From NCBI GenBank assembly GCA_029775925.1, contig JARVKB010000009.1:11283-75282 (forward strand): 64,000 nucleotides of DNA, written 5' to 3'. The notes under the pieces are model-generated. The model was not told the origin of the DNA. It saw only the letters and a program-made list of their open reading frames with translations, and made no database searches. The translations under genes and the position numbers were made by a program. Origin of the DNA: Nitrososphaeria archaeon. Its GTDB lineage: Archaea; Thermoproteota; Nitrososphaeria; Nitrososphaerales; JACAEJ01. Below are positions 54,764-63,566 of this stretch, in pieces (the stretch's first letter is position 1; every line of letters starts with the position of its first letter).

Positions 54764-55831
54764 ATGAAGATCATGATAGACAAAGAAATTTTAAAATTTA
54801 AATGTGTAAAAGAAAGTTCATTATATACAAAGAAAGGGGATAGGGTTCGTTGTGATCTTTGTGAGAGAAGATGTCATATCCCTTTGAACGGATTAGGATT
54901 TTGCAAGACGAGAGCGAATATAGATGGTAAATTGTATACTTTAGTTTATGGAGATATATCATCCATATCTTCAAATCCTATAGAGAAGAAGCCTTTCTAT
55001 CACTATTATCCTGGTAGCTATGCTTTAACAATTGGTACGTGGAGCTGTAATTTTACATGCCCGTGGTGTCAAAATTATGATATAAGCAAATACTATCCTG
55101 AACCTTACAGAGCCAATTATATGAGTCCTGAGAATTTTGTAAATTTAGCATTATCAGAAGGATGTCAAGGAGTATCATTTTCTTTTAACGAACCTACTTT
55201 ATTGTTCGATTATGCTATAGACGTATTTCCTTTAGCAAGAAAAAAGAACATGTATACGAATTATGTCTCAAATGGTTACATGACATTAGAAGCTTTAATA
55301 GCTTTAAAAGAAGCCGGGATGGACGCTATAAAATTCGATGTGAAAGGTAATTCTGATGCTGTAAGGAAATTTTGTGCAGCTAAAGTTGAGATAGTATGGA
55401 GAAATGTGAGAGAAGCCAAAAAGATTGGATTACATGTAGAGGTTGTGAATTTGATAATACCAAAAGTCAACGATGATGAATCCAGCATAAGAGAACTGGT
55501 TCAAAGGCATATAAAAGAGGCAAGTGAATATACTCCATTGCATTTTACTCGCTTTTATCCAGCATATAAAATGGTAGATATAGCATCAACACCCGTAAGA
55601 ACTTTAGAAAGAGCTCATGAGATCGCTAAAAAGGAAGGTTTGCAATATGCATATATAGGAAATGTTCCTGGCCATAAGTTTGAGAATACTTATTGCCATA
55701 ATTGTAATGAGTTATTGATAAAAAGATTTGGCTTCTTAATAATCAAATATTCTTTAACTCGTGATAAAAAATGCCCTAAGTGCAGAGAAGAGATACCTAT
55801 ATTTGGCAATTATGTGAATTATTTATGCTAA
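54764..55831 (+). CDS. AmmeMemoRadiSam-system-type radical SAM enzyme (PflA-like)
   Basis: N-terminal CDLCERRCHIPLNGLGFCKTR, cluster motif GTWSCNFTCPWCQN and C-terminal CHNCN...CPKC, as recalled for this family. Confidence 0.7.
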   Translation: MKIMIDKEILKFKCVKESSLYTKKGDRVRCDLCERRCHIPLNGLGFCKTRANIDGKLYTLVYGDISSISSNPIEKKPFYHYYPGSYALTIGTWSCNFTCPWCQNYDISKYYPEPYRANYMSPENFVNLALSEGCQGVSFSFNEPTLLFDYAIDVFPLARKKNMYTNYVSNGYMTLEALIALKEAGMDAIKFDVKGNSDAVRKFCAAKVEIVWRNVREAKKIGLHVEVVNLIIPKVNDDESSIRELVQRHIKEASEYTPLHFTRFYPAYKMVDIASTPVRTLERAHEIAKKEGLQYAYIGNVPGHKFENTYCHNCNELLIKRFGFLIIKYSLTRDKKCPKCREEIPIFGNYVNYLC

Positions 55832-56658
55832 ATCAGACTGGATAGATGACCAAGATAACTACCATCTAGTAGGTAAATTTCTGATTCATTTAATTTCAAG
55901 CATCTTGAACAGAGCAAAGGACCGAGAAGAGAAGCATAATTCATATTTATAGCATTCCCACCTAACAATGGGTTAAAATTTGGCATTATTATTACTTTTG
56001 GATCTCCGAAATTAAAACCAAAATGATCTTTGAAAGATTTGATAGGATCTGCACCAATTTTTAACTTTAAGTACTTTAGAAAGGATTTAGCTAACCTTTT
56101 CCTATCTAATTTTGCCATAACCCAGACAGGCTCTTCTATTCTAAAGTTATTCTCTCTAAATTCTATTGTGAGATGGTTATGGCCCATTATCAATACATCA
56201 CAACTGAAGAGCTCAGGGTAGGGCCATGCATGACCATGGATAAGGGCATAGGATTCTTTATCATTAAAGATAGATATGCCTTTTGAAGAATGGACTTTTA
56301 TTTCCTTAGGCAACAATGCTTTCAAGCCTCCGTCATGATTTCCCTTAACAATTTCTATGGACTTGACCAAATCCTTCAGCTTTTGGAAGAATTGAGGAAT
56401 ATCGAACCGTTCTTGTGGCACTATCTTTAGAGTACCGTGCTTTACATCGCCAAGTATTATTATCCTATCTACTGAAAATTTTTCTACTATTGATTTTATT
56501 TTATCAAAGATTTTTTGAGTTTGAGATGGTATGTTTATCCCTTTTGATGATAATACTGTCTCAAACCCTAGATGCAAATCAGATATTATGAGAATTTTAT
56601 CTGAGGAAGTTTCTAATAAAAGAGCTGGCTCATCAGGAACTATCCTTAGCATAATCAA
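55828..56658 (-). CDS. Calcineurin-like metallophosphoesterase (archaeal SbcD/Mre11-related family)
   Basis: ISDLHLG, ILGDVKHG, VKGNHDG, IHGHAW and MGHNH are phosphoesterase motifs. Confidence 0.75.
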   Translation of the reverse strand: MIMLRIVPDEPALLLETSSDKILIISDLHLGFETVLSSKGINIPSQTQKIFDKIKSIVEKFSVDRIIILGDVKHGTLKIVPQERFDIPQFFQKLKDLVKSIEIVKGNHDGGLKALLPKEIKVHSSKGISIFNDKESYALIHGHAWPYPELFSCDVLIMGHNHLTIEFRENNFRIEEPVWVMAKLDRKRLAKSFLKYLKLKIGADPIKSFKDHFGFNFGDPKVIIMPNFNPLLGGNAINMNYASLLGPLLCSRCLKLNESEIYLLDGSYLGHLSSLI

Positions 56659-58093: not shown

Positions 58094-58930
58094 ATGAATA
58101 AACCTAAGAATTTAAAACTTAATGAAGATGAAGAGCTTTTAAAATCTTTAAGGCCACATCCTCTTGCCTTTTTAGACTTTTATGCAATATTTTTATATGT
58201 GATAATTATAAGCTCATTCTTCATTTTTTATAGAGAGGATATAATAGCATGGTTGGAGAATATCTACCTTCTAGGTCTATTAAAAGATCAAATTTTTATC
58301 TTGATTTGGAGTGCCTTGATCATAGTACCTTTTCTTGCGATTGCAATTTTAAAGATAACATGGAGATGGTTCTTTTTCGCTATAATCTTGGTCTTTACAG
58401 GAATAGCTTTAGTATTCTTATATAATTTACCATCATATTATATGCAAATGCCATCAATTGTTGCAAGTATTTTAGGATTGATCCTAACAGAATTTTATCG
58501 AAGAGGGCATGCATTCTACATTACAGATCAAAGAATAATATCTGAACTGAGATTTTTATCATATAAAAGGCGTGAGTTGACTTATGGCAAGATTAACGAT
58601 CTCGCCCTCACAAAAGGAGTTCTTGGTCGAATATTTAACTATGGAACTATATTTCCTATAACTGCATCAGGTTTTGGATTAGGGGAAGACTTAGCAGCTG
58701 CTACCGTTGGAGTGGGCGCTTCTTCAAAGAAAGGAGTTGGAGGAGGAATAGCAGTAAGTGGTGGAAGAACGGTATCTATCCCAAGAGGAAGGAGTTCTTA
58801 TGTTTTATTTGGGGTTAGTAATCCAGACGAGGTTTATTCATTAATTTCAAAGCATATCCATGGATATGAAGAAGCACCTTATTTGAAGAAGATTTTAGAA
58901 GAGTTAAAATCTCAAAAAGAGAAAGGTTAA
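58094..58930 (+). CDS. Membrane protein with a bacterial-type PH (bPH_2/YdbS-like) domain and a Gly-rich tail
   Basis: TM helices, then FYITDQRIISELRFLSYKRRELTYGKINDLALTKGVLGRIFNYGTI, then a GVGASSKKGVGGGIAVSGG tail. I preferred the ATG at 58094. Confidence 0.55.
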   Translation: MNKPKNLKLNEDEELLKSLRPHPLAFLDFYAIFLYVIIISSFFIFYREDIIAWLENIYLLGLLKDQIFILIWSALIIVPFLAIAILKITWRWFFFAIILVFTGIALVFLYNLPSYYMQMPSIVASILGLILTEFYRRGHAFYITDQRIISELRFLSYKRRELTYGKINDLALTKGVLGRIFNYGTIFPITASGFGLGEDLAAATVGVGASSKKGVGGGIAVSGGRTVSIPRGRSSYVLFGVSNPDEVYSLISKHIHGYEEAPYLKKILEELKSQKEKG

Positions 58931-59610
58931 GAGATCAAAGGATATATCTCATTTATTACATAATTTAAGAAGTCATCTTTCTCCACTCTACTGAATATTG
59001 TCACTACCCCATCCCTTGTTATCCCTACTATGAAGCCATACCTTTTTGGCTTTATCACTATATACCATACATTACCATGATTACAATAATCATTGTACAA
59101 TGTTGTATCTGCCAAGCTTGAACCATAAAGAGATAATTTTTTAACATTAGGAATATCAACATCGTTAAAGAATACTACTTTTGTATCCTCAAAGTTCTGC
59201 TCATGAAAATTTCTCATTTTTTCTGGAGCGATTCTCGCCTCTACTATATGCCCTGTAGTCAAGAACAATATTTTGCTCATCTGATTCGCAATGCTATTTG
59301 CTTGCATCTTTTTCTCCAATATAGTTAAAAATATTTTATCATTATAATTGGAGAAGATAAAAGGAGCTTCTATAGTTTTAACTGTTGGTACTTTTTCCCC
59401 TCTATGATATATCATAATGACTTGATCTTGTGAATATTTTCCTTCAAGAGCATTTATAACCATCTTCATATCACTTATCTCTGTTATCAGCTTCAATTCA
59501 CGATCATCGAACTTTTGAATTTCTTCAGTCTTAAAATCCTTGAGTTTTGATGCTATTGTGTCTATATCGATTTCTTCTTTAACAACGAAGACCTTCCCTG
59601 CAGTCACCAT
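58927..59610 (-). CDS. Hypothetical protein (227 aa), no recognisable motif
   Basis: Long ORF with coding-like composition. It is divergent from the MBL/SMC-like gene string. Confidence 0.4.
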   Translation of the reverse strand: MVTAGKVFVVKEEIDIDTIASKLKDFKTEEIQKFDDRELKLITEISDMKMVINALEGKYSQDQVIMIYHRGEKVPTVKTIEAPFIFSNYNDKIFLTILEKKMQANSIANQMSKILFLTTGHIVEARIAPEKMRNFHEQNFEDTKVVFFNDVDIPNVKKLSLYGSSLADTTLYNDYCNHGNVWYIVIKPKRYGFIVGITRDGVVTIFSRVEKDDFLNYVINEIYPLIS

Positions 59611-60286: not shown

Positions 60287-60314
60287 GTTTAACATTATTA
60301 TATGGTGATAAGCC

Positions 60315-62243
60315 TTGAGCATATTGTCAGGAAAGAAGTCAAAAGCGTCAGTAACTATAAACGAGATAATACTGGAAAATTTTATGTCTTACGAATATGC
60401 AAGAATTCCATTAAAGCCTGGGCTGAATATAATCTGTGGCCCGAATGGGGCAGGAAAATCCTCGATACTTATTGCTATATCCGTGGTTTTAGGTCAGACA
60501 TACACTGAAAGGAGCAGAAAGTTAAGTGATCTTATAAGGCATGGGAAAGAAATAGCAAGGGCAACTTTGATCTTTGACAATAAACCAAAGGATGGCAAGA
60601 AACCAATACCGTTCATAAAATCAGATACATTTATGCTCTCTCGATATTTGAGGAAGGATGGTTCCTATTGGTATGAGGCAGATTATCACGAGATAGATAA
60701 GAGCCAAGTTATAAGGCTGTTTAGAGAGTTTGGCATAAACCCTGATAACATGCTCATAATAATGCATCAGAACATGGTAGAAGAGTTCAGTATCATTTCA
60801 CCACAAGAAAAACTGAAGATGGTAGAAGAGGCAGTGGGCTTTCAAGATTACAGGAGAAAAATATTAGAGGCTGAAGATAAACTTTCAGGTTTGATAAGTG
60901 AAGAGGAATCAACACTAAAAGCTCTTGAGAGTGCTGAGCAAACTCTGAATTATTGGAAAGAAGTTTATGAGAAGAGCCTTATCAGAAAAGAGCTCATCAC
61001 GAAAAAAGGATTTTTAGAAAGAGAAGCCATATGGGCTCAGATAATAAAGCATGAGAGAATATTATCATCTCTAAAAGATAAGCTAAAGAATAAAGTGAAA
61101 ATTTTTGAGGATATTGAATCAAGAATAGAACAGACGAAAGAATTTATAAAAAAATCTTATGAAAAAATTACTCTTCAAAAGATGGAGCAAAGAAAGCTTT
61201 ACTATTCTTTGCTCGAGCTTGAGAAGGCTATAACAGAGATTCAAGTAACTGAGAGTTTGTTAAATCAATTAAATGTAGAGCCTACGGGAAGACTGGCAGA
61301 GAAAGTAAAGAGCTTCAATAATAGTAAGAGAGAGATCGAAGATAAAATTTCTAAGATTCAGATAGAGTTGAGCAATTTAGATAAAGAAATTAATTTAAGT
61401 CTAGAGAAGTATGTCAACCATAGGGTCAACGAAGCTTTATTGAACTTTAGAAAGAAGAACTTAGAAGATGAGATAGACGATATAAAAAGAGAGATAGAAG
61501 ATGAGGAGAAGAAATTCGATGAGTTAGCTCCTTTAATGGAGAAGGCTGGTAAGAGAATAGAGACTGAAAGAAATTTTATAGAGATAGATGCTGAAATCAA
61601 GATATTAGATGCTCAAATTCAATCCCTCGGAGCCATACCTGAAGAAGCGGAAGAGATGTATAAAGCCTATTTAAAGACCTTCAATGAATTAAAGGAAAGG
61701 GCAGGTATACTATCTGAAAACAGGAAAAGGGCTTCTTTAGAGCTGGATGAGAGGAAAGAAGTTTGGAGGAAAGTTTTACAAAAGCTCATAGATGAAGTAA
61801 ATCCTTCATATCAAAGCATATTATCAAAGATCAACGCTTCAGGTAGTGTAAGGCTTATCGATTTAGAAGATTTAGAGACAGCAGGCTTAGAACTTTTGGT
61901 GGGTTTCAGGGGAAGTATGCAATATGTTTTAGACGCTTACACTCAAAGTGGCGGTGAGAGAACAGTAGCCATAATGGCTTTTCTTTTATCTTTACAGCAG
62001 CATATCATGTCCCCTTTTAGGGCTGTAGATGAGTTTGATGTTCATATGGATCCGAGAAACCGTGAAGCCATATTCAAAGTCATAGCCTCAACTATTAAAG
62101 AGAGTAAAGATGTACAGTATCTTATGATTACACCTAGCCAGATCGCTATTACTGAGCATGATGCTCATGTGATATTGGTTCAAAATGTTCAAGGAAAGTC
62201 TGAAGTAAAGGTAGTGAGGGAGTTTGCAAAGGGTAAAGGTTAG
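60315..62243 (+). CDS. SMC-family ABC ATPase with short coiled coil; head motifs SMC5/6-like
   Basis: Walker A NIICGPNGAGKSS; Q-loop region IIMHQNMVEEF; a heptad-rich middle of about 320 aa; signature QSGGERT; Walker B/D-loop FRAVDEFDVHMD; LMITPSQ in place of the H-loop. TTG start. Confidence 0.7.
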   Translation: MSILSGKKSKASVTINEIILENFMSYEYARIPLKPGLNIICGPNGAGKSSILIAISVVLGQTYTERSRKLSDLIRHGKEIARATLIFDNKPKDGKKPIPFIKSDTFMLSRYLRKDGSYWYEADYHEIDKSQVIRLFREFGINPDNMLIIMHQNMVEEFSIISPQEKLKMVEEAVGFQDYRRKILEAEDKLSGLISEEESTLKALESAEQTLNYWKEVYEKSLIRKELITKKGFLEREAIWAQIIKHERILSSLKDKLKNKVKIFEDIESRIEQTKEFIKKSYEKITLQKMEQRKLYYSLLELEKAITEIQVTESLLNQLNVEPTGRLAEKVKSFNNSKREIEDKISKIQIELSNLDKEINLSLEKYVNHRVNEALLNFRKKNLEDEIDDIKREIEDEEKKFDELAPLMEKAGKRIETERNFIEIDAEIKILDAQIQSLGAIPEEAEEMYKAYLKTFNELKERAGILSENRKRASLELDERKEVWRKVLQKLIDEVNPSYQSILSKINASGSVRLIDLEDLETAGLELLVGFRGSMQYVLDAYTQSGGERTVAIMAFLLSLQQHIMSPFRAVDEFDVHMDPRNREAIFKVIASTIKESKDVQYLMITPSQIAITEHDAHVILVQNVQGKSEVKVVREFAKGKG

Positions 62244-63015
62244 CGTAGAAGATTTGATAAGGATCGTCGAGTTATGTAGAACTGTAGAAAGGGAAGGAAT
62301 CGACCCCTTTGAAGTTAATGTGAGGGCTTATCTTGAAAAGCTGAAAAAGTATCTTCCTCATTGGAAGCTATTGGATGAGTTGCTCTTAGATGTAGAGGCC
62401 ATTAATGCCATATCATCAATAATAAAGCTACAGAGTGATTGGATAAAGAGTCGCTCATCATCTCTCTATATAGATCCAATATTCGTTGAGCTGAAGATAA
62501 GGATGTTAGATCAAAAGATGATAGCTGAAGCCTTCCTCAATTCTTGGCACCCTATAGTTGCAATAGATCAAATCTTTTCTCAAAAACTAAAAGAAGCCAT
62601 AGATTATTGGAATAATCTTTTACCATTAAGTGAAAGATGGAGGGAAGACTTCAGTCCAAGTACTCCTATTGGAACTTTTGATATGGATGATCTGATCGAG
62701 CTTAAACTCATCTCCTTGAAAGATTTTGATGAAAAAATGAAGAGATTGCTAGAGGAATTAAGGAGCAAATTAAAAGATAATGATAAAATCGATTATTGGG
62801 ATTTTGTTTGTGCAGATACTTTTGAAGAGACTTTAGAAAGAGCATATATTACAAGCTTTATATTGACAGAGGGCTATGCAACTCTTTTGATAGATCCATT
62901 GGAAGAGAGAATATTTATAACTCTTATAAAAAAATCAAGGAAGAGCATACCATGCTCTTTACCTATAGCAATAGACTATGAGAATTGGAAGAATCTTAAG
63001 GAGAGAAAGAATTGA
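62224..63015 (+). CDS. Kleisin-like (ScpA/Nse4-like) protein
   Basis: N-terminal helical segment (VEDLIRIVELCRTVEREGIDPFEVNVRAYLEKLKKYL...AINAISSIIKLQSDWIK). C-terminal WH-like ERAYITSFILTEGYATLLIDPLEERIFITL. The layout and size match ScpA. It overlaps the SMC-like gene by 20 nt. Confidence 0.5.
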   Translation: MQRVKVSVEDLIRIVELCRTVEREGIDPFEVNVRAYLEKLKKYLPHWKLLDELLLDVEAINAISSIIKLQSDWIKSRSSSLYIDPIFVELKIRMLDQKMIAEAFLNSWHPIVAIDQIFSQKLKEAIDYWNNLLPLSERWREDFSPSTPIGTFDMDDLIELKLISLKDFDEKMKRLLEELRSKLKDNDKIDYWDFVCADTFEETLERAYITSFILTEGYATLLIDPLEERIFITLIKKSRKSIPCSLPIAIDYENWKNLKERKN

Positions 63016-63566
63016 GCGAAAAAGAAGCAGAGACGAGCATAAAGCTGAAGAGAGCTTCACAGCTACTATTCTTTCAAAGACATAAAAAGCTTGGGTTAAG
63101 GGGATGGGAATTAAAGAAAGTATTGGGCAAGGATTTCATGAGCATAATAGATCTATTGAACTCAGAGCTTGATAAATTGAACCTTCAAGTGAAGATTGTT
63201 TTTGAAGATTTTGAAGCAATCGATAAGCCTTCTGAAGAGCAGATCGATAGAGCAAGATTCTTCATAACGATAAAGAACCCTTTAGCAGTTAGCGATATAA
63301 TATCATCTGGGTGGAGAATAGATGATATAGCTGCTTTAGCAGCAGCTATAGCTTTGATAATATCAAGGCAAGGTAAAGCTCCAAAGAGAGATGTAGAACA
63401 GATCTTAAGAGAAAAATTCCCAAAATGGAGAGTTGATATGAACTTAGATAGATTCATCAAAAACGGCTATCTATCAAAGGATGATAAAGATATCCTTTAC
63501 ATAGGATGGAGAACTAGGGCTGAGATAGATCAAAAGATGCTCATGGACCTATTATTGGCAAAATAA
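63012..63566 (+). CDS. Tandem winged-helix (kite/ScpB-like) protein
   Basis: Two WH-like modules: ASQLLFFQRHKKLGLRGWELKKVLGKD...LQVKIV and IAALAAAIALIISRQGKAPKRDVEQIL...FIKNGYLSKDDKDILYIGWRT. A 4-nt TTGA overlap with the preceding gene. Confidence 0.45.
   Translation: MSEKEAETSIKLKRASQLLFFQRHKKLGLRGWELKKVLGKDFMSIIDLLNSELDKLNLQVKIVFEDFEAIDKPSEEQIDRARFFITIKNPLAVSDIISSGWRIDDIAALAAAIALIISRQGKAPKRDVEQILREKFPKWRVDMNLDRFIKNGYLSKDDKDILYIGWRTRAEIDQKMLMDLLLAK

What the first reader, a model, noticed from the sequence alone, without database searches (positions are those of the whole stretch)
60315..63566. Compact SMC5/6-like ATPase + kleisin-like + tandem-WH (kite-like) operon: candidate minimal SMC complex of an undescribed type
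Three co-oriented ORFs have overlapping junctions, so they are very likely one translationally coupled unit. The second ORF starts 20 nt before the stop of the first. The third overlaps the second by the 4-nt TTGA.

ORF1 has a split ABC head:
- N-terminal half: ILENFMSYEYARIPLKPGLNIICGPNGAGKSSILIAISVVLGQTYTERSRKLSDLIRHGKEIARATLIFDN
- C-terminal half: QSGGERTVAIMAFLLSLQQHIMSPFRAVDEFDVHMDPRNREA...YLMITPSQI

From memory of family alignments, four features are hallmarks of eukaryotic SMC5/SMC6 heads: the SGGER(S/T) signature, PFR..DEFDV.MD, a TP in place of the usual TH of the H-loop, and the LG....R...LIR.G pattern after Walker A. Canonical bacterial/archaeal SMC has SGGEK and ITH instead.

ORF2 has the size and the N-helical/C-winged-helix layout of ScpA/Nse4 kleisins. 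ORF3 has two WH-like modules, as in ScpB and the Nse1/Nse3 kites.

A complete SMC-kleisin-kite triad with an SMC5/6-type head but a 642-aa ATPase is not a system I can place in any described family (SMC-ScpAB, MukBEF/MksBEF, Wadjet JetABCD, Rad50-Mre11, ClsN/ASRPs).
Basis: partly seen in the sequence, partly recalled or inferred. Interest (0 to 1): 0.85.

Follow-up and report, generated by a model that had tools for sequence, protein, structure and literature searches.

The report
Hingeless archaeal SMC5/6-like three-gene operon
This is a three-gene operon from a Nitrososphaerales archaeon encoding the archaeal relative of the eukaryotic SMC5/6 chromosome-maintenance complex (ATPase, Nse4-like kleisin, Nse1/3-like kite); the family was already described by comparative genomics, but its ATPase has short arms and no hinge, which the papers I could read do not mention.

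Summary
Three co-oriented ORFs (642, 263 and 184 aa) overlap by 20 nt and by the 4-nt TTGA.

- **ORF1** is an SMC-family ATPase. Its best solved relative is yeast Smc5. Its nearest non-archaeal relatives in a 1.84-billion-protein library are eukaryotic SMC5 and SMC6. It shares QSGGER, SPFR.VDE and ITP (not ITH) with them.
- **ORF2** has an Nse4-type C-terminal winged helix.
- **ORF3** is predicted to fold as a tandem winged helix that best matches Nse1 and Nse3.
- **Synteny:** the order SMC-kleisin-kite is conserved in Nitrososphaeria and Bathyarchaeia. The kite alone is found in at least 535 species genomes.

The claim of an "undescribed type" fails. Yoshinaga & Inagaki (2021) defined "SMC5/6-related archaeal SMC". 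van Hooff et al. (2024/25) described exactly these SMC/Nse4-like/Nse1,3-like operons.

What those papers do not discuss:
- The ATPase is a bare coiled-coil hairpin of about 21 nm with a 7-residue tip, no hinge and no zinc hook.
- Rare relatives carry a candidate CxxC hook or a hinge at the same apex.
- A conserved unknown 227-aa gene is often divergently linked to the operon.

Verdict: a new member of a computationally known but experimentally untouched kind.

The parts
60315..62243 (+). ORF1: SMC5/6-related archaeal SMC-like ATPase, 642 aa (possibly 639 aa from the TTG at 60324)
   Evidence: Pfam SMC_N 2.6e-35. Best PDB sequence match is yeast Smc5 at 1.5e-30. Nearest non-archaeal library hits are eukaryotic SMC5/SMC6. 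Motifs compared. AF2 model has pLDDT 84.4.
60354..60836 (+). N-terminal half of the ABC head (aa 14-174), including Walker A GPNGAGKS (aa 42-49, nt 60438-60461)
   Evidence: Secondary structure of the AF2 model. Invariant G42-S49 in the family alignment A3.
60843..61268 (+). Ascending coiled-coil helix (aa 177-318, one continuous helix, about 21 nm)
   Evidence: AF2 model. The length in nm is my inference from 142 helical residues.
61269..61289 (+). Arm tip: a 7-residue turn (aa 319-325, LN-VEPTG) where a hinge or zinc hook would sit
   Evidence: AF2 model. The apex columns of A3 are hypervariable, with indels of 0 to about 45 aa. SMC_hinge is absent at E<=1 for ORF1 and is not among the 25 most-matched families listed for the 36 members. 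There is no CxxC.
61290..61826 (+). Descending coiled-coil helix (aa 326-504) with conserved joint-like interruptions at aa 412-420 (RIETER motif) and aa 438-444 (nt 61548-61646)
   Evidence: AF2 model. R414, T417, R419 and E423 are nearly invariant. The top Foldseek hit is the Pyrococcus Smc head with coiled coil and joint, 5xei, 3.9e-24.
61836..62216 (+). C-terminal half of the ABC head (aa 508-634): signature QSGGER (nt 61944-61961), Walker B/D-loop AVDEFDVHMD (nt 62022-62051), and ITP in place of the H-loop ITH (nt 62127-62135)
62224..63015 (+). ORF2: Nse4-like kleisin, 263 aa. The C-terminal winged helix is aa ~189-261 (nt 62788-63006). The conserved N-terminal helical domain is assigned by analogy.
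   Evidence: Family profile A1 versus PDB: human NSE4 paralogue EID3 8.1e-06, yeast Nse4 1.8e-05, ScpA N-domain only 0.19. Pfam Nse4_C matches 27 of 31 family members, best 2.2e-08; ORF2 itself scores 0.0067, below the cut-off.
63012..63566 (+). ORF3: kite (tandem winged helix; WH1 about aa 28-87, WH2 about aa 93-164), Nse1/Nse3-like, no RING, no cysteine
   Evidence: AF2 model has pLDDT 80.6. Foldseek against PDB: Nse1/Nse3 chains 7dg2_C 6.8e-06, 5hvq_D/C, 7dg2_A (TMq 0.68), followed by MukE, MAGE and ScpB. There is no sequence-level hit.
62224..62243 (+). 20-nt overlap of ORF1 and ORF2
63012..63015 (+). TTGA start/stop overlap of ORF2 and ORF3
60295..60303 (+). TTATTATAT, a TATA-box-like element in the 28-nt gap upstream of ORF1 (inferred promoter, leaderless transcript)
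   Evidence: Sequence only. Inference from the usual archaeal TATA-to-start spacing; not tested.
58927..59610 (-). 227-aa conserved protein of unknown fold; a recurrent divergent upstream neighbour of the operon (candidate partner, membership unproven)
   Evidence: Upstream and divergent in 27 of 51 informative genome loci, 17 of them immediately adjacent. Searching from this protein's side in metagenomes, the operon lies within 5 kb, always divergent, in 32 of 50 loci. No Pfam, NCBIfam, PADLOC or PDB-sequence match.

Best explanation
The three genes encode the archaeal 'SMC5/6-related' SMC complex of a Nitrososphaerales archaeon. They form one tightly coupled chromosomal operon: SMC-like ATPase, then an Nse4-like kleisin, then an Nse1/3-like kite.

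**Shown here**
- Family membership of all three proteins.
- Intact ATPase motifs.
- The conserved gene order.
- A short two-helix arm that ends in a 7-residue turn, with no hinge and no zinc hook.

**Inferred by analogy with Smc-ScpAB and Smc5/6-Nse1/3/4 structures**
- Two ATPase subunits sandwich two ATP between their heads.
- One kleisin bridges the neck of one subunit (through its N-terminal helices) and the cap of the other (through its C-terminal winged helix).
- A kite homodimer sits on the middle of the kleisin. Together with the tops of the heads it forms an ATP-gated DNA clamp.
- Without a hinge, the two arms are not covalently closed into a ring. The only closed compartment would be the kleisin/head compartment. 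The complex would then more likely act as a head-proximal DNA clamp or sensor in repair and chromosome maintenance than as a canonical hinge-closed loop extruder.

Close relatives also carry a ScpB-type kite. This complex therefore probably works beside a canonical SMC-ScpAB.
For: **ORF1**
- Pfam SMC_N 2.6e-35.
- Best PDB relative is yeast Smc5 at 1.5e-30, ahead of Pyrococcus SMC heads, SMC6, SMC2, SMC3, SMC1 and Rad50.
- In the search of 1.84 billion representatives, the first hits after the archaeal family are eukaryotic SMC5 and SMC6 and Asgard proteins. Canonical SMCs (TIGR02169 684-906 bits) are interleaved just below them.
- The motifs QSGGER, SPFR.VDE and ITP are shared with SMC5/6 and not with canonical SMC.
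- In a rough head-domain NJ tree, the family + eukaryotic SMC5/6 + Asgard proteins separate from canonical SMC with 99% support. The core of the family has 99-100% support.

**ORF2:** Nse4/EID3 at 8e-06 and 1.8e-05; Nse4_C in 27 of 31 relatives.

**ORF3:** the predicted tandem WH matches Nse1/Nse3 best.

**Operon**
- Overlaps of 20 nt and 4 nt.
- The order SMC-kleisin-kite is seen in nearly all of 80 genome loci that have enough upstream DNA.
- The kite is present in at least 535 species genomes.
- Neighbours are housekeeping genes: FeoB, radical SAM, MBL hydrolase, TFS.

**No hinge**
- 502 residues separate Walker A from the signature motif. The same spacing is 400-560 residues in 156 of 160 full-length relatives.
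- The apex is hypervariable.
- The AF2 model is a hairpin.
- There is no SMC_hinge match.

**Literature:**
Against: - No experiment exists for any member of this family. Stoichiometry, kleisin bridging, DNA clamping and biological role are all inferred by analogy.
- The kleisin N-terminal domain has only a non-significant match to ScpA (E 0.19). No structure was predicted for ORF2.
- By raw phmmer score, the margin between SMC5/6 (about 128-133 bits) and canonical SMC (about 120-124 bits) is small. My tree is NJ with only two canonical SMCs and no SMC1-4 or Rad50 outgroups. The SMC5/6 placement therefore leans on motifs and on the published phylogenies.
- A hingeless protein might still dimerise through its arm or tip. 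That cannot be seen in a monomer model.
- Whether this genome also has a canonical SMC-ScpAB was not testable within the window. No ORF exceeds 646 aa.
Confidence: 0.78

Rival explanations
1. It is an SMC-like immune system of the Lamassu or Wadjet type. A short coiled-coil ABC ATPase would sense foreign DNA together with small partner proteins.
For: - ORF1's size and roughly 20-nm arm resemble LmuB, which is about 650 aa with about 20-nm coils according to PMC10586767.
- ORF1 matches PADLOC models for mad3 (105 bits), AriA (72 bits) and LmuB (53 bits).
- Eukaryotic SMC5/6 itself restricts episomal DNA (PMC10586767).
Against: - The PADLOC matches are generic ABC-head matches. They are weaker than the SMC matches (TIGR02169 162 bits, Smc5 110 bits).
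- ORF2 and ORF3 match no defence component, whether JetA/B/D, LmuA/C or anything else.
- No nuclease or other effector gene is in the operon.
- Walker B keeps its glutamate (DEFD). LmuB usually carries E-to-Q there.
- The neighbourhood is housekeeping.
- The operon is near-universal in Bathyarchaeia and present in at least 535 species genomes, with about 50% identity across classes. That is unlike patchy, fast-evolving defence islands.
Confidence: 0.06
2. It is a divergent, shortened version of the canonical prokaryotic condensin Smc-ScpA-ScpB.
For: - It has the same three-part composition and gene order as Smc-ScpAB.
- ORF1's best NCBIfam match is SMC_prok_A.
- The profile of the ORF2 N-terminus weakly touches ScpA (E 0.19).
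Against: - The SMC_prok_A score is 162 bits against a cut-off of 729. True canonical SMCs found in the same search score 684-906.
- Head motifs differ from canonical SMC.
- ORF2 matches Nse4_C, not ScpA.
- ORF3 matches Nse1/Nse3 well ahead of ScpB, which ranks 42nd at E 0.035.
- Close relatives carry a separate ScpB-type kite in addition.
Confidence: 0.03
3. ORF1 is a Rad50-, ASRP/ClsN- or RecN-type repair or compartment ATPase that does not use ORF2 and ORF3 as kleisin and kite. The adjacency would be only operonic co-expression.
For: - It has short arms and no hinge, as in RecN.
- Rare long relatives in Bathyarchaeia carry a CxxC at the apex, like Rad50 and ASRPs.
- Weak NCBIfam hits exist to Rad50 (50-55 bits) and ASRP (41 bits).
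Against: - Those scores are far below the cut-offs (700-1000 and 300).
- ORF1 itself has no CxxC. Its single cysteine lies in the P-loop region.
- No Mre11 gene is adjacent. A 276-aa metallophosphoesterase lies 3.7 kb away on the other strand.
- The kleisin and kite genes are adjacent to the SMC gene, in the order SMC-kleisin-kite, in most of the sampled Nitrososphaeria and Bathyarchaeia loci that have enough upstream DNA; five loci show no SMC upstream of the pair and in one the SMC lies 3.3 kb away.
- ASRPs are defined as a clade separate from SMC5/6-related SMC (PMC9389158).
Confidence: 0.07

Closest known systems
Archaeal 'SMC5/6-related' SMC complexes (Yoshinaga & Inagaki 2021, PMC8665677; van Hooff et al. 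2024/25, bioRxiv 10.1101/2024.01.07.573240)
   Same: - Same taxa: Thaumarchaeota/Nitrososphaeria, Bathyarchaeota, Verstraetearchaeota and others.
- Same three subunit types: SMC5/6-related SMC, Nse4-related kleisin, Nse1/3-related kite.
- Same gene order.
- Orthologous kites in assemblies JACAEJ01 and JACPRH01 are scored in their Table S3.
   Different: Nothing differs at the level of membership; this operon is a member. Those papers removed the coiled coil before tree-building. In the text and supplement I could read, they do not mention that these proteins are about 600-690 aa with no hinge. They assume hinge-type homodimers.
Eukaryotic Smc5/6 core (Smc5-Smc6-Nse4-Nse1-Nse3)
   Same: - Head sequence motifs (QSGGER, SPFR.VDE, TP H-loop).
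- Nse4-type kleisin WHD.
- Nse1/Nse3-type tandem-WH kite.
- Presumably the same head/kleisin/kite DNA-clamp geometry (inference).
   Different: - One SMC gene, so a homodimer, not an Smc5/Smc6 heterodimer.
- One kite, so a homodimer, with no RING and no MAGE-specific additions.
- No Nse2, Nse5 or Nse6.
- The arm is about 21 nm instead of about 35-50 nm.
- No hinge.
Prokaryotic Smc-ScpAB
   Same: SMC homodimer + one kleisin + kite dimer architecture, encoded in one operon in the same order.
   Different: Different clade for all three subunits. Canonical Smc is about 1170 aa, with a hinge and about 47-nm arms.
MukBEF / MksBEF / Wadjet JetABC(D)
   Same: SMC-like ATPase with kleisin and kite partners. 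MukE appears among the fold matches of ORF3.
   Different: Much weaker matches (JetC 40 bits; MukE E>=2e-3). Those ATPases keep a hinge. There is no JetD-like nuclease here.
Lamassu LmuB and Rad50/ASRP (ClsN, Sph1/2)
   Same: Short coiled-coil ABC ATPases of similar size. Some long relatives of ORF1 have an apex CxxC like their zinc hooks.
   Different: ORF1 has no hook and an intact Walker B glutamate. Its partners are kleisin and kite, not a nuclease or effector. Sequence scores are far below the family cut-offs.

Membership tests
Archaeal SMC5/6-related complex | SMC-like ATPase whose head is closer to eukaryotic SMC5/6 than to canonical archaeal/bacterial SMC | tested here: met
   Best PDB match is Smc5. 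The first non-family library hits are eukaryotic SMC5/SMC6. The NJ tree gives a 99% split from canonical SMC (rough method, few outgroups).
Archaeal SMC5/6-related complex | Nse4-related kleisin encoded next to it | tested here: met
   Profile A1 hits human EID3/NSE4 at 8.1e-06 and yeast Nse4 at 1.8e-05. Nse4_C is found in 27 of 31 relatives. ORF2 alone is below the Pfam cut-off.
Archaeal SMC5/6-related complex | Nse1/3-related kite encoded next to the kleisin | tested here: met
   The predicted fold matches Nse1/Nse3 best. Orthologues in JACAEJ01 and JACPRH01 are counted as Nse1_Nse3_related in the paper's Table S3.
Archaeal SMC5/6-related complex | Co-localised genes in the order SMC-kleisin-kite | tested here: met
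   Overlapping junctions in the window. The same order is seen in nearly all informative loci among 80.
SMC protein in the strict sense | Split ABC head with Walker A, signature motif and Walker B | tested here: met
   GPNGAGKS, QSGGER and DEFD are invariant in the family.
SMC protein in the strict sense | Long antiparallel coiled-coil arm (about 35-50 nm) | tested here: not met
   The arm helix is 142 residues, about 21 nm, and is folded back by a 7-residue turn. In 156 of 160 relatives, Walker A and the signature motif are 400-560 residues apart.
SMC protein in the strict sense | Hinge dimerisation domain at the arm apex | tested here: not met
   No SMC_hinge match at E<=1. SMC_hinge is not among the 25 most-matched Pfam families listed for the 36 members. 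The apex is hypervariable with indels. The AF2 model is a hairpin. As positive controls, SMC_hinge is found in Asgard P0402 and in eukaryotic SMC5 P0420.
Eukaryotic SMC5/6 holocomplex | Heterodimer of two paralogous SMCs (Smc5 and Smc6) | tested here: not met
   The operon has one SMC gene. There is no other SMC-like ORF in the 64-kb window.
Eukaryotic SMC5/6 holocomplex | Nse1 RING, Nse2 SUMO ligase, Nse5/6 | tested here: not met
   ORF3 is 184 aa and has no cysteine, so it has no RING. The operon ends after ORF3 at a convergent gene.
Smc-ScpAB (canonical prokaryotic condensin) | SMC reaching the TIGR02169/TIGR02168 cut-offs; ScpA and ScpB family partners | tested here: not met
   162 bits against a cut-off of 729. 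There are no ScpA or ScpB family hits; ScpA N-domain E 0.19, and ScpB ranks 42nd among fold matches.
ASRP / ClsN / Sph | NCBIfam ASRP model; zinc hook (CxxC) at the apex | tested here: not met
   ASRP scores 41 bits against a cut-off of 300. There is no CxxC in ORF1.
Rad50-Mre11 | Rad50 models, zinc hook, adjacent Mre11 nuclease | tested here: not met
   Rad50 models score 41-55 bits against cut-offs of 700-1087. There is no hook. The adjacent genes are kleisin and kite.
Lamassu / Wadjet defence systems | LmuB or JetC with LmuA/LmuC or JetA/JetB/JetD partners | tested here: not met
   LmuB 53 bits and JetC 40 bits, which are generic head matches. ORF2 and ORF3 give no PADLOC hit.
SMC-kleisin-kite holocomplex (physical) | Kleisin N-terminus binds the SMC neck, its C-WHD binds the SMC cap, and a kite dimer binds the kleisin | not testable with these tools
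This needs multimer prediction or biochemistry.

The most novel reading that the evidence does not exclude
The predominant archaeal SMC5/6-type machine may be a kleisin/kite-binding SMC that works with no hinge at all. It would be an open-armed, head-proximal ATP-gated DNA clamp.

Within one orthologous family the arm apex may be an exchangeable module:
- a bare hairpin in most members;
- a roughly 400-aa extension with a candidate CxxC zinc hook nested inside Bathyarchaeia;
- a true hinge in Asgard relatives.

A conserved 227-aa protein encoded divergently upstream may be a fourth, unrecognised partner.

If so, hinge-closed ring topology would not be required for the ancestral SMC5/6-type activity.
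Probability: 0.3. Interest if true: 0.7.

Novelty: new member of a known kind. Interest (0 to 1): 0.48.

Why it matters
**Why the system matters.** SMC5/6 is the least understood eukaryotic SMC complex, and its origin is traced to exactly this archaeal lineage.

**What this operon adds.** The archaeal version has only three small subunits: a 642-aa ATPase, a 263-aa kleisin and a 184-aa kite. It forms a homodimeric system and appears to lack the hinge.

**What it could make testable.**
- It could serve as a minimal, tractable model for which SMC5/6 activities (DNA clamping, ATPase regulation by kleisin and kite) need only heads and necks.
- It could test whether ring closure through a hinge is dispensable.

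**A caution for evolutionary scenarios.** Scenarios that treat these proteins as ordinary hinge-dimerised SMCs should take their architecture into account.

**For genome annotation.** These genes are currently labelled 'AAA family ATPase' and 'hypothetical protein'. They can be named.

Tried and rejected
- **ORF3 by sequence:** profile searches against PDB sequences and Pfam gave nothing significant. Only structure prediction plus Foldseek identified it.
- **Defence-system reading:** the PADLOC scan gave only generic ABC-head matches for ORF1 and nothing for ORF2 or ORF3. Rejected.
- **Canonical SMC-ScpAB, ASRP/ClsN, Rad50 and RecN/RecF:** all NCBIfam scores are far below the cut-offs. Rejected.
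- **Intein as the explanation for the roughly 1000-aa relatives:** the extra 400 aa sit exactly at the arm apex and no intein or Hint family was matched. Rejected.
- **Confirming the apex inserts of long relatives by sequence** (P0363 hinge-like, P0315 CxxC hook): no PDB-sequence match. Left as candidates.
- **Identifying the 227-aa neighbour:** Pfam, NCBIfam, PADLOC and a PDB profile search were all negative.
- **Finding arm length or hinge absence discussed in the literature:** no mention in PMC8665677, in bioRxiv 10.1101/2024.01.07.573240 with its supplement, or in PMC9389158. Literature searches for experimental work on the archaeal complex found none.
- **Supplementary accession lists of PMC8665677:** not held. 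A direct accession match for ORF1's family was therefore not possible. The link rests on taxa, motifs and the kite rows of van Hooff Table S3.
- **Canonical SMC in the same genome:** none in the window.

Full report
**Observation**

The ORF list confirms three co-oriented ORFs at 60315-62243 (642 aa), 62224-63015 (263 aa) and 63012-63566 (184 aa).

The DNA shows a 20-nt overlap of ORF1 and ORF2, and a TTGA start/stop overlap of ORF2 and ORF3. A GGAG lies upstream of the ORF3 start. The unit ends at a convergent TFS-like zinc-ribbon gene.

Identical proteins are on record from Nitrososphaerales MAGs. They are annotated only as 'AAA family ATPase' and 'hypothetical protein'.

ORF1's start is either the TTG at 60315 or the TTG at 60324. 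A TTATTATAT box at 60295-60303 would fit a leaderless transcript from the latter (inference).

**ORF1**

Family assignment:
- Pfam assigns SMC_N at 2.6e-35.
- NCBIfam's canonical SMC model scores 162 bits against a cut-off of 729. ASRP, Rad50, RecN and RecF models all score far below their cut-offs.
- The best solved relative is yeast Smc5 at 1.5e-30. It ranks ahead of Pyrococcus SMC heads, human SMC6, SMC2, SMC3, SMC1 and Rad50.

Distribution:
- The homologue search found more than 4,500 relatives. The best 120 are 587-695 aa long.
- They come from Nitrososphaerales, Bathyarchaeia, Hadarchaeales, Methanomethylicota, Thermoplasmata and ANME-1, and are about 50% identical across these groups.

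Nearest relatives outside the family:
- In an exhaustive HMMER search of 1.84 billion cluster representatives, 126 proteins reach E<=1e-30.
- After the archaeal family, the next hits are eukaryotic SMC5 (Thamnocephalis, Tieghemostelium), eukaryotic SMC6 (an insect) and Asgard proteins.
- Canonical archaeal SMCs (TIGR02169 684-906 bits) are interleaved just below. The score margin is small, so I compared motifs directly.

| Motif | This family | Eukaryotic SMC5/6 | Canonical archaeal SMC |
|---|---|---|---|
| Signature | QSGGER(S/T) | QSGGE(R/K)S in SMC5; LSGGE(R/K)S in SMC6 | LSGGEK |
| After signature | SPFRAVDEFDVHMDPRN | SPFRVVDEINQGMDP(R/K)N (SMC5) | SGFYILDEVDAPLDPMN |
| H-loop region | ITP | (V/I)TP in SMC5; (L/I)TP in SMC6 | ITH |

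A rough NJ tree used 304 head columns and 100 bootstraps, rooted on two canonical SMCs.
- It separates the family + eukaryotic SMC5/6 + Asgard proteins from canonical SMC with 99% support.
- The core family has 99-100% support.
- The family is sister to eukaryotic SMC5+6 with 74% support.
- This is indicative only. There are few outgroups and it is a distance method.

**ORF1 architecture**

The family alignment shows highly conserved heads and proximal coiled coil. The apex is hypervariable and has indels of 0 to about 45 residues.

The AlphaFold2 model (pLDDT 84.4) has these elements:

| Residues | Element |
|---|---|
| 14-174 | N-terminal half of the head |
| 177-318 | one continuous helix |
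| 319-325 | 7-residue turn (…LN-VEPTG) |
| 326-504 | return helix |
| 412-420 and 438-444 | conserved interruptions of the return helix (RIETER and LG.(I/V)PEE motifs) |
| 508-634 | C-terminal half of the head |

- The top structural match is the Pyrococcus Smc 'head with coiled coil and joint' (5xei, 3.9e-24). Smc5/6, condensin and cohesin heads follow. The interruptions therefore look like the SMC joint.
- No SMC_hinge domain is detected in ORF1 at E<=1. It is also not among the 25 most-matched Pfam families listed for the 36 relatives.
- The same Pfam model does find hinges in an Asgard relative (P0402, 4.6e-11) and in a eukaryotic SMC5.
- ORF1 has no CxxC.
- Of 160 full-length relatives sampled, 156 have only 400-560 residues between Walker A and the signature motif.

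The family is thus, as a rule, a short-armed (about 21 nm, inferred), hingeless and hookless SMC5/6-type ATPase.

**ORF2 and ORF3**

ORF2 alone touches Pfam Nse4_C below threshold (0.0067).
- A profile of 31 relatives hits the human NSE4 paralogue EID3 (8.1e-06) and yeast Nse4 (1.8e-05) over the C-terminal winged helix.
- The N-terminus touches the ScpA N-domain non-significantly (0.19).
- 27 of 31 relatives hit Nse4_C, best 2.2e-08.

ORF3 has no sequence-level match.
- Its model (pLDDT 80.6) is two winged-helix modules.
- Its best PDB matches are Nse1 and Nse3 chains of Nse1-Nse3-Nse4 complexes (6.8e-06 to 1.3e-04, TM up to 0.68).
- MukE, MAGE and ScpB rank below.
- ORF3 has no cysteine, hence no RING.

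**Context and conservation**

- The kite profile found relatives in at least 535 GTDB species genomes.
- In the 80 best loci (Nitrososphaeria, Bathyarchaeia), the order SMC (1.9-2.06 kb)-kleisin-kite is kept wherever enough upstream DNA exists. There are few exceptions.
- The window's neighbours are housekeeping genes: FeoB, radical SAM, metallophosphoesterase, DUF362, MBL hydrolase and TFS.
- No ORF in the window exceeds 646 aa, so no canonical SMC lies within these 64 kb.
- PADLOC gives only generic head matches for ORF1 and nothing for ORF2 or ORF3.

**Literature**

- Yoshinaga & Inagaki 2021 (PMC8665677) defined 'SMC5/6-related aSMC homologs'. They occur mainly in TACK metagenomes (Crenarchaeota, Verstraetearchaeota, Thaumarchaeota, Bathyarchaeota, Korarchaeota) and branch with SMC5+6. 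The authors assumed homodimeric complexes. They removed the coiled-coil columns and accepted lengths of 500-1,500 aa.
- van Hooff et al. (bioRxiv 10.1101/2024.01.07.573240) showed Nse4-related kleisins and Nse1/3-related kites in TACK and Asgard archaea. These are organised with SMC5/6-related SMCs in operons distinct from the condensin/cohesin-related ones. Kleisin and kite were adjacent in 31 of 31 cases.
- Their Table S3 scores an Nse1/3-related kite, and also a ScpB-like kite, in assemblies JACAEJ01 and JACPRH01. These are the assemblies in which I found kites 76% and 54% identical to ORF3 (L007, L079).
- ASRPs/ClsN are a separate clade with zinc hooks (PMC9389158).
- I found no experimental study of the archaeal SMC5/6-related complex. 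I also found no statement about missing hinges or short arms in the texts and supplement available.

**Interpretation**

The operon is a member of the computationally described archaeal SMC5/6-related complex. Its claim that the system is undescribed is not.

The mechanism is inferred by analogy with Smc-ScpAB and Smc5/6-Nse1/3/4 structures:
- ATP-driven head engagement of a homodimer.
- Asymmetric bridging of neck and cap by the kleisin.
- A kite dimer on the kleisin, forming a DNA clamp on the heads.

The arms are not joined by a hinge or hook. A hinge-closed SMC compartment therefore cannot form unless the arms associate non-covalently. I consider a head-proximal clamp or sensor role in repair and chromosome maintenance more likely than canonical loop extrusion. 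This step is inference.

**Side findings**

1. **Long relatives in Bathyarchaeia.** Rare relatives (P0315 1047 aa, P0320 1028 aa, P0326 1016 aa) carry a roughly 400-aa insertion exactly at the apex. It contains a conserved C-(D/E)-(K/R)-C-G-S motif, a candidate zinc hook. P0315 and P0326, the two of these included in the NJ tree, nest inside short Bathyarchaeia forms with 96% support.
2. **Other apex inserts.** P0363 (982 aa) and P0390 (928 aa) carry globular, hinge-like inserts that were not confirmed by sequence. The Asgard P0402 has a bona fide hinge.
3. **A linked 227-aa gene.** The unknown protein at window 58927-59610 (minus strand) is a recurrent divergent upstream neighbour of the operon. 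It is upstream in 27 of 51 genome loci, 17 of them immediately adjacent. Searching from its own side, the operon lies within 5 kb and always divergent in 32 of 50 metagenome loci. It has no recognisable family.
4. **Operons that are split or incomplete.** A few loci have kleisin-kite pairs with no SMC upstream (L010, L014, L030, L055). In L045, three opposite-strand genes, including a KaiC-like ATPase, split SMC from kleisin.

**Verdict**

- It is a new member of a known, purely computationally defined kind.
- The hingeless, minimal architecture and the plastic apex are real features. They deserve experimental follow-up.
- Interest is moderate.

Noticed in passing
window 58927-59610 (- strand); also L008 3424-4101, L020 2590-3267, L034 3408-4085 and others: A highly conserved 227-aa protein (alignment A4, mean column identity 71%) has no Pfam, NCBIfam, PADLOC or PDB-sequence match. 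It is a recurrent divergent upstream neighbour of the SMC5/6-like operon. It lies upstream in 27 of 51 genome loci, 17 of them immediately adjacent. From its own side, the operon lies within 5 kb in 32 of 50 metagenome loci, always in divergent orientation. In the window, an MBL-fold hydrolase gene sits between the two. It may be a fourth partner.
   Followed up: partly
relatives P0315 (RLI38935.1-type, 1047 aa), P0320 (1028 aa), P0326 (1016 aa); insertion maps to ORF1 aa 319-330 (window ~61269-61304): Rare Bathyarchaeia relatives carry a roughly 400-aa insertion exactly at the arm apex, with a conserved CDKCGS/CERCGS motif. This is a candidate Rad50/ASRP-like zinc hook inside an SMC5/6-type protein. 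In a rough NJ tree, P0315 and P0326 (the two included in it) nest within short forms with 96% support. The motif was not confirmed by a PDB sequence search.
   Followed up: partly
relatives P0402 (Ca. Freyarchaeum deiterrae, 835 aa), P0363 (982 aa), P0390 (928 aa), P0395/P0398 (~630 aa): The Asgard relative P0402 keeps a Pfam SMC_hinge (4.6e-11). P0363 and P0390 have globular, hinge-like apex inserts that Pfam and the PDB search did not detect. Two other short (~630 aa) proteins group with the hinge-bearing Asgard protein at 84% support, which hints at independent hinge losses.
   Followed up: partly
L010, L014, L030, L055 (kleisin at ~6.2 kb, ~6.2 kb, ~2.5 kb and ~2.2 kb); L045 786-4064: Some Bathyarchaeia loci have the kleisin-kite pair with no SMC gene upstream, even at tblastn E<=1. 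In L045, three opposite-strand genes (a KaiC-like ATPase, a 617-aa membrane/KaiC-like protein and a 196-aa protein) are inserted between SMC and kleisin.
   Followed up: partly
window 60295-60324: A TTATTATAT box lies 16 nt upstream of the TTG at 60315 and 25 nt upstream of the TTG at 60324. Databases hold both a 642-aa and a 639-aa version of ORF1. The spacing would fit a leaderless mRNA starting at the second TTG.
   Followed up: no
relative P0417 (781 aa): A 781-aa SMC-like protein retrieved by ORF1 groups with a canonical archaeal SMC (100% bootstrap) rather than with the SMC5/6-like family. It may be a shortened canonical-type SMC.
   Followed up: no
window 55828-56658 (- strand): A 276-aa calcineurin-like metallophosphoesterase (Metallophos 1.4e-09) lies 3.7 kb upstream of the operon. 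It is too small and too distant to be taken as an Mre11 partner, and it overlaps the radical-SAM gene end by 4 nt.
   Followed up: no
van Hooff et al. Table S3: Several Sulfolobales and Thermoproteales (Metallosphaera, Ignicoccus, Acidilobus, Caldivirga) are scored with an 'SMC5_SMC6_related' protein but with no Nse4- or Nse1/3-related partner. How those proteins relate to the short family here, and to ClsN/ASRPs, is unclear.
   Followed up: no
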